Shown here one piece after another: positions 19,706-51,934 of a stretch of 64,000 nt of DNA (positions are counted from its first letter, which is position 1; the number at the start of each line of letters is the position of its first letter). The translations under genes were made by a program, and so were the position numbers. Source of the DNA: Octopus vulgaris (taxonomy: Eukaryota); assembly GCA_951406725.2 (NCBI GenBank), contig OX597824.1:59396001-59460000 (forward strand). Direction: 5' to 3'. The notes under the pieces were generated by a model, which made no database searches, was not told the origin of the DNA, and saw only the letters and a list, made by a program, of their open reading frames with translations.

Positions 19706-19847
19706 ATGTCACGAAAAAAGGAATATGATTTTGATGGTCTCTTTACTGATCTAAAAATATTTGGCAAATTTCAAATTCGTGAATCTCTTGCTCTTATGTC
19801 AACATGCCTTGTTGCTTCTTTTGTATTGCTACAAATTATCTTCCTGG
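19706..19847 (+). CDS. SLC22 (organic cation/anion transporter-like) first coding exon, copy A
   Basis: MSRKKEYDFDGLFTDLKIFGKFQIRESLALMSTCLVASFVLLQIIFL(G) fits the SLC22 N-terminal 'FD.lL..lG.FG.FQ' motif followed by TM1; 142 nt; ends G|GTAAGT (phase 1). Confidence 0.85.
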
Positions 19848-20465
19848 GTAAGTTGTGATAGTCAATTCTTCCTTGTTTAAGCTTAATTTTTAATTTTGAT
19901 GTCAAAAACAATTTGTTTAAATATTGTGTCGTTGAAATAGCAGACAGTCGAATTTCTCTTATTTTGCCCCATGCTATCCTTTTCTAATTATGTTCAGTGA
20001 CAGTCCAACTGTGACCGTAACGTTTTTATTCCAGCGTTTATAATGCTACATTCTCCAATATGTTACTCAAGATTCTATAGTGTGGTGTATATCTGAACGA
20101 GTTTTCTCTATACTAATCCCACGTCCTTAGTACTTGTAAACAAGAACTTCCATTGATATAAAGAACATTTTATAAGATATATTTTCTAAATAAGCTTTTT
20201 TCTGGTTGAACAGGATATTCGTTTAATAATATTTGGGGCTCTATTCCTTCTTCAGGCTCTTTATCTACTGTGTTCAAACCACACCGTGTTCAACCTTGCC
20301 TTTCATCTCTCCGGGTCGATGAAATAGTATATCCATAGAGTAGCGTATGGAATCTACTAACCTCTCCCCACTAAATTGATAGCTTATACATGAATCAAAA
20401 ACTACAATCATAACATCAACAAAAACTACTACTACTACTGTTGTTTGTTGTGGTGTTCTTCTTTT

Positions 20466-23400
20466 CACTGTATTGAAAGTGTTTTACGTAGGATATGTGC
20501 GGTGCCTAATAGTGCTATTTTTTGTATGTTACATATACTTGTAAATCCTGATGCTTTTGTTATGTATTTGTCTGAATGTTTTTTTTCATACCTAATGCAC
20601 CTACTATGATAGGAATTGTTTCTGTTTGTAGACTCCACATTCGAATTACCTCTATTTTCAGATCTTTGTAGTTTGAAAGTTTCTCCGTTTCTTTTAGAGA
20701 AACATTGTCATCTGTTGGTATTGATACATAGATTAGAAAGAATTTCTTTCTTGATGATCTCTAAGAGCTACATCCTACCTATTGGCCTTAATTTCCATAC
20801 CTGTGTATATTGACATATCTAATAGTATGGTTGCTTGCTAATTTTCTGAGACCTTTTCTGGCGTGTGTCTATACCATCTGTTTTCCTGTTGTTATTCCTT
20901 AGTGTTGGCATAGCTTCCATTGTATATAGGTCCCGACTCTGTCGTGTCAGTGAATATATTCTTTCTTGGCCAGGACTGGGCAGCCAGAGACAATATGATT
21001 TATTGTTTCTTCTCCATCACCACATATTATGAAGTTACTTGTATTTCTTTTCATTTCGTGCTTTTGATGATTTCTGGTGGGAAGGCTTTGATCTTGTGCT
21101 ACAATTGAAGATCCTTCAGTCTCTGCCTTGAGATCTAAACTTCTCGGTCGTTATTGGGAATTTGCTTTGTCTATTTCTTTTCTGTTTAACTTAACCCAAT
21201 ATTTGCTTTTCTTGCCATCGTTTTATTATGGTATGTTGTTGTACCAGTTTTAGTTTGGATTTCAGTTGTTTTACAGCTTCAGCTTCTTTAAAGACTGAAA
21301 ACAGCTTCTTGTTTTGTTCGAGATTTGTGGCTATCTGTATTAGCTTTCCTTGATTCTGAAGTAGGTATTTTTGTAATCTTATGGTGGTTATTTTATAATA
21401 ATTTCTAGTTTTGTGGTGAGGCATCTTAAATCCTGTCATTGCTTTTCTTGTTTTCCTGTCTATTTTGATTAGTTCATTTAGAGTCCAGTGAAGAATATTG
21501 TAGCATATAACAAGGATAGCTACTGTTGTTCGCATTGAGCTCTATTTTCAGTACTAATCTAACTCGTCTATAGTATTCCTTTCTTATCTGCTCTTAGATT
21601 TGTGTGTTTTGCATAGTATCTAGTTCGTTGATTCCTAAATATTTGTATGTCTGGCTTTGGTCTAATTCTCTTATTTCATTTGCTTTATCTAGTGTGATGC
21701 TTTTACTCTTAACTAGTTTTCTTCTTTTCAAAGTTGCTTTGACACATTTTTCTAAGTTAAGTTTCATGTTTATCTCTTGTTTCCTGCTGTTTATCATTTG
21801 CAGCGTACTGTTTTAAAACATCCATATACAAGAGATGGTTGATTCTTTTGCAGTAACAGTTCTATCCACATCCAGTTCTGTTTAGCAGGTTAGATAAAGG
21901 TGTCAGTGCCAAGCAGAAAAGGAGTGAAGAAAGCATCTCTCCCGGGAGTATTCTTCTAATGGGGATGGCTTTGCTTTTTATGAGTCCATCTTTTGTCTGG
22001 GACTGTAGCAGTCTGCCATTTATTCATGGGATGTTTGATGTATTTTATGATTATTGATGCTGCCTTTTTTCATGGCTAGTGTTCCTAGGATCCATGTGTA
22101 GGGAATACTATTAAAAGCACTTCGGTAATCGATCCAGTCCATTCTTAGACCCTTCTCCTTTCTGAAGCAATCTTCAGTTGTGGCTTTATTGATCAGTAGC
22201 TGAACTTTACAATTGTATGAGCCCTTGCAGCATCCTTTCTGCTCTTCTGGAAACAAGTTGTTTTCTTCCAGATGCTTGCTCATTCTCCGTGATATTGCAT
22301 TAAAGGCTTTATAAATTGTAGGGAGACAGTTATCGGTCTGTAATTTTGTGGGTTCGTCGTTTCAGTGGATCTTTGAATTAAGATAGTTTTCCGTTTCGTG
22401 AGCCAGTCAGGCATTGTCTCCTAGTATTTCATTACATTTCTCAGCCAGCTTTTTATGTGTTCCTGTTAGGTATTTTAACCAGAAGTTGGAGATCTTGTCG
22501 TGACCGGATGCCTTCTAGTTGCTTAGTTCTTGCAGCGCTTGGGTAACCTCATCAGTTGTTAGAGTTGTTAATGTGCTGTGTTCGTTGTTTTGACAGACCT
22601 TTTCTAAGGTTGTTCCTTCGCCGACCATATTTCTTTCCAAAATTCTTCCACTTCTTCAGCTGTTGGTGATGCATTGATGTTTTATTTTATTTTTGATATT
22701 TTCTTGGTAGAATCTTTTGGGGTTTGAGTTTAACTGTTTTGTTCAAAGAAATGTTGATGTTTCTCATACCGGCGGATTATTTGTCCTTTGGCTAGGATAT
22801 CTTGTTTTATCTGTTCTTTTACCTCTGGTATACCTTGTTCAGTTTCTTCTTGTTGCTTAGTAGCGTTGATAGTCTACTAGTTTCATTAAGGATTGACAAA
22901 TCCTTTCTCTTATTTTCTACTTTTTTCTGGATATTATTTATCCACTGGGTTTGTTCGGGTGGTGATACCTTTATTTGGATGAGTTTTGGGGGGTATCCAG
23001 CTTCTTTTGTGGCCACAGTGGCTGCTGCATATATTATATCATTTAGCCTGGTCATATTGACATTTGTTTCTGTGGCTACTAGTTCTGTGACAACCAACTT
23101 CATCCTATTTGTTATTGATGTTTTAATATCAATTTTAATTTTTGCGAGATACAACCGGTCGTCCTCATTAGTTTCACTATCACTGTTTCCAGGTTTTAGA
23201 TTTCTTTCGTATTCCCCCCCATTTATATTTGTGTCTGTGGTGTTCTGGTTTGGTGCATTTTGCTTATCATTATACATTCCTACGATCTGGGCGTGTAGTC
23301 TTTCGTTATTTACTTCGTTTTTGTTGGACATGTTACATCTGTCTTCGTGTTTTACAGTCCCAATGCTTATGATATTATTTGGCATTGCCGTGTGGTTGCT

Positions 23401-50540: not shown

Positions 50541-51792
50541 TATCTATCTACCTATCTATCTACCTATCTATCTATCTATCTATCTATCTATCTATCTATC
50601 TATCTATCTATCTATCTATCTATCTATCTATCTATCTACCTACCTACCTATCTATCTATCTATCTATCTATCTATCTATCTATCTATCTCTTTTTCATTT
50701 TCTATCTTTGCCTCATCTACCACCCGTACTTACCTAGGTATATCCTGTAGCTATGCTCAGACACTCTGGAAATAATTTCAACAATAACAACAACAACAGA
50801 AATAATAATAATAAATACTTGTTGTTGTTGTTGTTGTTGGTGGTGGTGGTGGTGGTAGTGTGGGTGATGCTGTTTATGTTATCCAAGTGTAAGACAATAG
50901 CTAAATTGACAATAATAATAACGATGAGGAGGAGGAGGAGGAGGGGGAGGAGGGAGAGGAGGGGGAAGGGGAAAGGGAAGAAGAGGAGGAAGGTTAACGT
51001 TGATTACGTTAAAATGTCTATCTAAATGAACCTCTTTTTTGCTTTTCCCGATCATCTCTTCTCTTTCCTGATTTTACCATCACCGTGTGTGTTGTGTGTG
51101 AGTAGTTATACATACATGCATAAATACGTACACACACACACACACACACACACACACACATACATATATATATATATATATATATATATATATATATATA
51201 TATATATATATATATATATATATATATATATATATATATATATATATATAGCATATATAGGTATACGTTCAATATTTGGTATGCTACATGAACGGAATGA
51301 AATTGCTAAGATTTAAGAGCGGAACCACTGAATAAATGGCTGGATGATCGAACGATGGAATAAAGGCCAGAAAGAAAGAATATATGGACCTATGGGTAAA
51401 TGAAAGGTTAAAAGATTCAGACGGCGTAGCGAGTGGAGGATGAAGAAGAAGAAGAAGAAGAAGAAGAAGAAGAAGAAGAAGAAGAAGAAGAAGAAGAAGA
51501 AGAAGAAGAAGAAGATCGATATATGAAATATATCATATAATCATCACCACTACCACCACCACATACCAATCCCCACCATCGTAAGCACCAGCTCGACCAA
51601 CAACTACCCCCACTACCATCACAGTCATGAAAGAACAATATCACTACGACTACTAACAATATTAACCTCACCAATGTAATAAGAACAGCGATTTCACAGC
51701 ATAACAGCGACAACTTCGCGGCGACTGTTACTAATCACTGAAAACAATACCGATAATATCACCAGCCAATAGCACGGCCATAAGTTTCGTAG

Positions 51793-51934
51793 ATGGCTGG
51801 TACAGAGGCCGTTTATGATTTGGATAATCTACTCATCAATTTAAAGACTTATGGTAATTACCAAATTAGACAGCTGCTTGTTTCGTCTTCTCTTTTGATT
51901 GTATCTCATAGTCTTTTCCAAGTACTGGCAATAG
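51793..51934 (+). CDS. SLC22 first coding exon, copy C (divergent; absent from the ORF track)
   Basis: ATG at 51793; MAGTEAVYDLDNLLINLKTYGNYQIRQLLVSSSLLIVSHSLFQVLAI(G) aligns with copies A and B (YD.D.L..dLK.(F/Y)G.(F/Y)QI...sL.Q...G); 142 nt; G|GTAAGT phase-1 donor. Confidence 0.78.

What the first reader, a model, noticed from the sequence alone, without database searches (positions are those of the whole stretch)
19706..51934. Array of three paralogous SLC22 first exons with no visible downstream exons between them: candidate variable-first-exon transporter locus
Seen in sequence: three + strand exons (19706, 29853, 51793), each exactly 142 nt from ATG to a phase-1 G|GTAAGT donor. All are stop-free even though the surrounding DNA is decayed, and copy C is absent from the ORF track. 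The 10 kb and 22 kb between them are mostly assignable to transposons, and I found no SLC22 exon 2 or later (Cys-containing loop, TM2-12). Established: UGT1A and vertebrate clustered protocadherins splice one of many tandem first exons onto shared constant exons. Inference: this locus may build several transporters by swapping the N-terminus and TM1 onto one shared body lying beyond the window. I do not know of this architecture being described for SLC22.
Basis: partly seen in the sequence, partly recalled or inferred. Interest (0 to 1): 0.9.

Follow-up and report, generated by a model that had tools for sequence, protein, structure and literature searches.

The report
Octopus transporter with swappable first helix
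In an octopus genome, three related versions of a transporter gene's first exon sit in a row ahead of one shared gene body, and public sequence contigs join the farthest one straight to that body, so the gene likely makes several transporters that differ only in their first membrane helix, which may change what they carry.

Summary
Confirmed and extended. The three 142-nt exons (A, B, C) are real and intact, and no later SLC22 exon lies in the window. One complete nine-exon body begins 2.2 kb past the window end. In 3 of 4 public runs from separate studies (RNA status guessed by the tool), contigs cover exon A without its intron. They continue into that body's exon 2 across 46.4 kb, skipping B and C, and carry a base found only in that copy. 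Public O. sinensis and O. bimaculoides gene models put four and three such exons on identical bodies. The exon types are orthologous across three Octopus species. Twelve of 12 control SLC22 genes elsewhere on the contig have one first exon per body. Each variable exon encodes the N-terminus plus TM1, a pocket-lining helix in OCT1. Not shown here by reads: the B and C joins. Also untested: separate promoters and any substrate difference. The architecture is known (UGT1, protocadherins, insect Gr/Or). My paper searches found no description of it for SLC22 or in cephalopods.

The parts
19706..19847 (+). Variable first coding exon A (47 aa: N-terminus + TM1), phase-1 donor; intron to shared exon 2 is 46,386 nt
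   Evidence: contigs of runs X1, X6, X8 cover it, stop at the donor and continue into body-1 exon 2; identical peptide in O. sinensis XP_036363381
19670..19705 (+). Likely 5' untranslated part of exon A; a TATA-like word lies at 19623-19630 (weak in AT-rich DNA)
   Evidence: contigs begin at 19670, 19679 and 19689 with no 5' loose end; contigs cannot prove a start; for the word
29853..29994 (+). Variable first coding exon B (47 aa; Glu at the OCT1-F32-equivalent position); intron to shared exon 2 would be 36,239 nt
   Evidence: identical peptide in O. sinensis XP_036363382 and a B-type exon in O. bimaculoides XP_014771032; join not tested with reads here
51793..51934 (+). Variable first coding exon C (47 aa, most divergent type: the near-identical copy G shares 16-18 of 47 residues with A and B); intron to shared exon 2 is 14,299 nt
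   Evidence: public model CAI9730291 (P0058) = C + body 1, mapped exon by exon; join by annotation only
51935..64000 (+). Intron leading to the shared body, which lies OUTSIDE the window: exon 2 (Cys-rich loop, phase-1 acceptor) at G000:C11:59462234-59462430, 2.2 kb past the window end, and exons 3-10 (TM2-TM12, stop) at C11:59465012-59499324
46238..50072 (+). Retrotransposon (reverse transcriptase) fragments between B and C; filler, not part of the gene
   Evidence: RVT_1 and zf-RVT hits

Best explanation
This is one SLC22-family transporter gene in which three tandem, paralogous first coding exons lie ahead of a single nine-exon body; exon A is joined directly to that body in public contigs, B and C are likely joined the same way, and each mRNA would carry one N-terminus plus TM1 on an otherwise identical protein. 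SHOWN: the layout; the matching phase-1 ends; the A-to-exon-2 join skipping B and C; retention of the exon types in three species. INFERRED: each exon has its own promoter and the donor nearest the transcript start is used, as in UGT1 (about 0.7). The array arose by repeated duplication of a promoter-plus-exon-1 unit, followed by block duplication of the whole module, with some copies dying (D, F). TM1 exchange retunes the substrate pocket (about 0.5), most plausibly at the OCT1-F32-equivalent position, which is Ala in A, Glu in B/H and Val in C/G/E. The promoters would also give tissue-specific expression.
For: Layout: 8 exon-1 copies, 3 close exon-2 copies and 2 complete bodies in 464 kb, and no other close copies in the genome searches; no N between A and body 1. 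Join: 3 of 4 runs, 3 studies; cover ends at the donor, no cover in the intron next to it, and the 30-nt loose end matches only body-1 exon 2. Annotation: O. sinensis XP_036363379-82 = four first exons on an identical 518-aa body; O. bimaculoides XP_014786633.2, XP_052827625 and XP_052827626 = three on an identical 393-aa body; LOC106869705 X1/X2 = two on one exon 2. Selection: dN/dS 0.34 (A-B), 0.37 (B-E), 0.41 (A-H), 0.52 (E-H); orthologs 38-43 of 47 identical versus paralogs 16-30 of 47; exons group by type, not species. Control: 7 of 7 and 5 of 5 SLC22 genes in two other clusters are 1:1. Structure: helix 21-47 ends at the exon boundary; fold matches OCTN2/OAT1/URAT1. TM1 residues F32 and C/Y36 line the OCT1 pocket and affect transport or inhibition (passages of PMC10940649, PMC10567722, 10.1101/2023.03.15.532610).
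Against: Only A was tested with reads; B and C rest on automated gene models. Those models disagree about which body a given exon joins: O. sinensis puts A and B on a body 39 of 518 residues different from body 1, and one O. bimaculoides A-type exon appears on two different exon-2 copies, so mis-joins among near-identical paralogs exist. The runs are contigs whose RNA status is a guess. A-E dN/dS is 0.93, and dS is saturated for G (C-type) against the others. Only 2 of 15 inner tree branches reach full support. The known gate position (OCT1 36) is Leu in 12 of 13 rows, so it is not what varies. The OCT1 mapping rests on one ungapped 51-residue alignment (E 0.0075). No transport data exist here.
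Confidence: 0.82

Rival explanations
1. Alternative promoters only: the array is real but serves tissue- or stage-specific expression or trafficking; TM1 differences are tolerated drift with no change of substrate.
For: Position 36 is almost invariant and many TM1 changes are hydrophobic swaps; the body supplies 11 of 12 helices; A-E dN/dS is near 1.
Against: Type-specific TM1 features (Glu in B/H, Pro in H, His in C/G) are kept in O. bimaculoides. B and H differ at 12.7% of exon sites but 3.1% of adjacent intron sites (p 5e-6), with 16 replacement and 2 silent changes, although replacement versus silent alone is not significant (p 0.53).
Confidence: 0.35
2. The exons are internal, mutually exclusive cassettes downstream of a shared non-coding exon and one promoter (NKCC2-like), not first exons.
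For: C and G have an AG directly before the ATG with a short pyrimidine run; contigs cannot show starts.
Against: A contigs from three runs extend 17-36 nt upstream of the ATG along the genome with no 5' loose end; every intact copy carries its own ATG.
Confidence: 0.12
3. Ordinary tandem genes or orphans: C + body is the only real gene, and A and B are left-over first exons of genes that lost their bodies, or bodies were collapsed in assembly; the joins are read-through noise or mapping artefacts.
For: The locus has near-identical bodies, a gap right after the second exon 2, and an inverted duplicate of the region upstream of A. Two nearby copies (D, F) are dead. Gene models conflict.
Against: The A join is in reference-free contigs from three studies. 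There is no gap and no body relic between A, B and C. A and B are intact, under purifying selection and kept across species, whereas D and F show what decay looks like here.
Confidence: 0.07

Closest known systems
[quoted passage not shown]
   Same: Tandem, similar first exons each spliced to common constant exons; birth-and-death with pseudo-exons; here too a likely xenobiotic-handling protein.
   Different: Those encode enzymes or adhesion proteins, and the UGT1, GCNT2 and UGT2A layouts are described as vertebrate-specific. That the UGT1 and Pcdh variable exons cover half or more of the protein is recalled; here the exon is 47 of 566 residues, one helix of a 12-helix transporter.
Insect gustatory and odorant receptor loci with tandem long first exons on shared 3' exons (PMC6175461, passages read)
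   Same: Invertebrate polytopic membrane protein, same splicing layout, some isoforms pseudogenic.
   Different: The variable exon is long and the shared part is the short C-terminus; here it is the reverse. Receptor, not transporter.
NKCC2/SLC12A1 exon 4 variants (one passage in PMC6873903, a secondary statement)
   Same: A solute carrier whose isoforms exchange one transmembrane segment and differ in ion affinity: the best functional precedent.
   Different: Internal exon (TM2), other family and fold; one promoter (recalled).
Mammalian SLC22 (OCTN2, OAT1, URAT1, OCT1-3) and ordinary tandem octopus SLC22 clusters
   Same: Same fold (TM-scores 0.69-0.85 among the top ten Foldseek hits); separate exon 1 and exon 2 in the 12 control genes as well.
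   Different: The octopus controls diversify by whole-gene duplication (12 of 12 are 1:1). No variable-first-exon SLC22 turned up in my paper searches.
Cephalopod protocadherin clusters (PMC9068888, passage read)
   Same: Tandem diversification in the same animals.
   Different: The paper states that cephalopods do not use multiple first exons on shared exons for protocadherins; this locus uses that layout for a transporter.

Membership tests
SLC22 transporters | MFS fold with 12 transmembrane helices | tested here: met
   Pfam MFS_1 and Sugar_tr over cut-off; AlphaFold model of the O. sinensis B-type isoform P0087, pLDDT 82, pTM 0.80; top 47 Foldseek hits are all SLC22
SLC22 transporters | Large Cys-containing extracellular loop between TM1 and TM2 | tested here: met
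   exon 2; C55, C79, C96 and C118 conserved in at least 90% of 48 sequences; beta strands 53-102
SLC22 transporters | Transport of organic cations, anions or zwitterions; subfamily assignment | not testable with these tools
   best sequence hits are OCTN2 and OAT1; no assay
Variable-first-exon cluster (UGT1/Pcdh type) | Tandem array of mutually similar first coding exons with one splice phase | tested here: met
Variable-first-exon cluster (UGT1/Pcdh type) | One common set of constant exons downstream, none between variable exons | tested here: met
Variable-first-exon cluster (UGT1/Pcdh type) | A distal variable exon splices directly to the first constant exon | tested here: met
   exon A in 3 of 4 runs
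Variable-first-exon cluster (UGT1/Pcdh type) | Every intact variable exon does so | tested here: inconclusive
   B and C by public gene models only
Variable-first-exon cluster (UGT1/Pcdh type) | Each variable exon has its own promoter | not testable with these tools
   weak hint for A only
Variable-first-exon cluster (UGT1/Pcdh type) | Birth-and-death: pseudo-exons among intact ones | tested here: met
   D frameshifted with a dead donor, F truncated, in the second module
Variable-first-exon cluster (UGT1/Pcdh type) | Variable exon determines specificity | tested here: inconclusive
   TM1 maps to the pocket of OCT1; position 32 varies, position 36 does not
Ordinary tandem SLC22 gene cluster | One body per first exon | tested here: not met
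   3:1 here versus 12 of 12 controls at 1:1

The most novel reading that the evidence does not exclude
Octopuses evolved a UGT1-style cassette system for a polyspecific SLC22 transporter: promoter choice selects one of several pocket-lining TM1 helices (one type bearing a Glu inside the cavity) on a fixed 11-helix scaffold. This gives tissue-specific transporters with different substrate ranges from one gene, and selection keeps the exons distinct while the bodies and flanks stay alike.
Probability: 0.45. Interest if true: 0.85.

Novelty: new variant of a known kind. Interest (0 to 1): 0.7.

Why it matters
It moves the variable-first-exon design, known from vertebrate UGT1 and protocadherins and from insect chemoreceptors, into a solute carrier and into cephalopods, whose protocadherins are reported not to use it. 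It also supplies a natural experiment: three or more first exons, only about 35-65% identical, on the same transporter body. That makes the contribution of TM1 to SLC22 polyspecificity directly testable. The isoforms already sit in public gene models of two other Octopus species. Of the four public O. vulgaris proteins I retrieved for this cluster, two carry exon C and two have no first exon, so A and B were not seen annotated there.

Tried and rejected
No RNA holder was listed on record by the run search; not used as evidence. Run X5 laid nothing on exon A; no evidence either way. A genome-wide Pfam Sugar_tr search scored only 9 of 597 candidates and missed this locus. Exon B alone found nothing in the PDB. 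In the eight-exon DNA alignment the H row was given on the wrong strand and was ignored. Global pairwise alignments worked only for B-H; the other six pairs gave no usable overlap. A search for short database proteins found 4, all gene models, and no transcript fragments. The body tree is mostly unresolved (1 of 5 inner branches supported), so concerted evolution of bodies is not claimed. Positive selection on B versus H by dN/dS alone is not significant (p 0.53); conversion of the flanks explains it equally. The original survey of variable first exons (PMC314283) is not held, so whether it lists an SLC gene is unchecked. Three look-ups of earlier findings returned nothing. No supplements were read.
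Full report
OBSERVATION. That pattern occurs three times on both strands of the window and nowhere else in it. No exon 2-10 sequence lies in the window by tblastn with six homologues, by exon-wise HMMs or by DNA search with the body exons. Of 44 ORFs of 95 aa or more between A and C, 3 hit reverse-transcriptase families, 1 has a sub-cut-off desaturase hit and none is MFS. 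Repeat content between the exons is at least 41% (A-B) and 29% (B-C), so 'mostly transposons' is plausible but not shown.

WHAT IS THERE. The window is G000:C11:59396001-59460000. The genome is an Octopus genome: an O. vulgaris model, CAI9730291 (P0058), maps to it exon by exon without a mismatch. I read 464 kb around it. The order on + is: A (59415706), B (59425853), C (59447793), then one body of nine exons from 59462234 to 59499324, starting 2.2 kb past the window. Then come D (about 59527747, frameshifted, donor lost), E (59541392, intact), F (about 59552273, truncated), G (59572966, C-like, intact), a second exon 2 (59573777) and a 100-N gap with no exon 3 after it. On the minus strand lie H (59703869, B-like) and a second complete body. 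Genome-wide searches found no further close copies (counts there are lower bounds). Exon 2 starts with a phase-1 acceptor that completes the Gly codon of any first exon. Flanks upstream of C match flanks upstream of G at 82-97%, and flanks downstream of B match those of D and H. So the body-less B-to-C stretch most likely existed before the module was duplicated.

THE JOIN. I laid four runs from four studies on 19612-20400. All are contigs, and RNA is the tool's guess. Three runs (X1, X6, X8) cover 19670-19849, show no cover from there to a short repeat at 20272, and have a loose end of 93-222 nt at the donor. The 30 letters shown match exactly one place in the 464 kb, the start of body-1 exon 2, including the base (position 14) that separates it from the other two copies. 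X5 laid nothing. A is therefore joined across 46,386 nt, skipping B and C. The contigs are reference-free, so this is not a mapping artefact, and the genome searches showed no place where exon A abuts exon 2. B and C could not be tested: one call was allowed.

INDEPENDENT MODELS. O. sinensis XP_036363379-82 (X1-X4) carry G-, E-, A- and B-type first exons on 518 identical residues; the A and B peptides equal the window's. O. bimaculoides XP_014786633.2, XP_052827625 and XP_052827626 carry C/G-, E- and A-type exons on 393 identical residues, and LOC106869705 X1/X2 carry B- and E-type exons on one exon 2. Against over-reading: these are automated models on near-identical paralogs. O. sinensis puts A and B on a body that differs from body 1 at 39 of 518 residues, and one O. 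bimaculoides A-type exon appears on two different exon-2 versions. They support 'more first exons than bodies' better than 'which body'.

CONTROL. With the same profiles, all 7 SLC22 genes in C11:7.48-7.83 Mb and all 5 in C11:67.51-67.71 Mb have one exon 1 per exon 2 and exon 3. The second stretch holds 5 of the 17 exon-2 hits of that cluster. The method sees later exons where they exist, and the 3:1 layout is special.

SELECTION. Pairwise dN/dS over 46 codons: A-B 0.34, A-H 0.41, B-E 0.37, E-H 0.52, A-E 0.93, B-H 2.2. dS is saturated for G (C-type) against the rest. In a tree of 21 rows the exons group by type across three species (A 93/92, B+H 91/90, H 98/98, C/G 96/97, E 83/83; only 2 of 15 inner branches fully supported). 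Five ortholog pairs share 38-43 of 47 residues, three paralog pairs 16-30. B and H differ at 18 of 142 exon sites but at 37 of 1195 adjacent intron sites (p 5e-6). Replacement versus silent is not significant (p 0.53), so either diversifying selection or flank conversion that spares the exon fits.

WHAT IS SWAPPED. An AlphaFold model of the O. sinensis B-type isoform (48 sequences, pLDDT 82) has a short helix at 9-15 and TM1 at 21-47, ending at the exon boundary. The top 47 Foldseek hits are all SLC22, best OCTN2. An ungapped alignment of a B-type exon to consensus OCT1 (E 0.0075) places residue 37 at OCT1 F32 and residue 41 at C/Y36. Passages read state that F32 belongs to the aromatic bundle needed for metformin transport and that C36 affects inhibitor potency (PMC10940649). 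They also state that Y36 lines the cavity, with the OCT2 equivalent Y37 forming the thin gate (10.1101/2023.03.15.532610), and that residue 36 was suggested to explain a human-mouse difference for fenoterol (PMC10567722). Here the 36-equivalent is Leu in 12 of 13 rows, while the 32-equivalent is Ala (A), Glu (B, H) or Val (C, G, E), and the Glu is kept in O. bimaculoides. Codons 2-24 are more conserved than TM1 in all 6 pairs among A, B, E and H (dN 0.11-0.24 versus 0.22-0.53). TM11 carries the Arg shared with OCTN2 and OAT1; that this is the site of OCT1's D474 is recalled. A Glu placed in the cavity by one cassette would be the simplest way to shift charge preference; this is inference.

MECHANISM. 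Most likely each exon has its own promoter, transcription runs through the downstream exons, and the donor nearest the start is spliced to exon 2, giving A-, B- or C-headed transporters with 519 identical residues. Shown: layout, phase, the A join, retention across species. Inferred: promoters (about 0.7), the B and C joins to body 1 (about 0.85 and 0.9), substrate effect (about 0.5).

KNOWN SYSTEMS AND NOVELTY. It works like UGT1, GCNT2 and Pcdh (PMC1885805, passages) and like insect Gr/Or loci (PMC6175461, passages). NKCC2 exon 4 is the precedent for a swapped helix changing affinity (one secondary passage, PMC6873903). PMC9068888 (passage) says cephalopod protocadherins do not use this layout. 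Seven searches aimed at a prior description (listings and abstract openings only, and only part of the longer lists) showed none for SLC22 or cephalopods. The library lacks most subscription journals, and PMC314283 was not held. No supplements were read. Verdict: a real, well-supported new variant of a known architecture; the isoforms are latent in public annotations, and I found no discussion of them. Interest 0.7.

Noticed in passing
G000:C11:59574791-59574890 and 59576720-59607036: A 100-N gap follows the second exon 2. Beyond it lies an inverted, roughly 89-98% identical copy of 59391439-59412483 (which includes window 1-16483). The second module's body is probably missing or mis-scaffolded; O. 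sinensis models show more body types than this assembly holds.
   Followed up: partly
window 29853-31200 versus G000:C11:59703869-59702540 (-): Exon B and its paralog H are four times more divergent than the adjacent intron (12.7% versus 3.1%; 16 replacement, 2 silent), and both types exist in O. bimaculoides.
   Followed up: partly
G000:C11:59465012-59465242 (exon 3): Public models CAI9730292 and the O. bimaculoides XP_014786633 series lack exon 3 in frame (77 aa, roughly TM2 into TM4); real skipping or an assembly gap was not tested.
   Followed up: no
body-1 exon 2, O. sinensis XP_036363383: A further, unrelated short first exon is modelled on body 1; not looked for in this genome.
   Followed up: no
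G000:C11:67.43-68.15 Mb, C11:7.51-7.83 Mb, C13:31.4-32.0 Mb: Large ordinary SLC22 expansions: 17 and 7 exon-2 hits on C11 and about ten last-exon hits on C13; octopus SLC22 diversity is high by both routes.
   Followed up: partly
window 57570-60557 (-): 996-codon open frame with a reverse-transcriptase domain (RVT_1, E 2e-29), a young-looking retrotransposon inside the C-to-exon-2 intron.
   Followed up: no
window 1666-2478: A 64-nt-period minisatellite with long open frames on both strands; the fragments at 860-1774 look Helitron-like (label recalled, not tested).
   Followed up: no
G000:C14:21543134-21544420 (-): An intronless sugar-transporter-family gene covering the whole Pfam model (E 1e-94), unusual among intron-rich relatives.
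   Followed up: no
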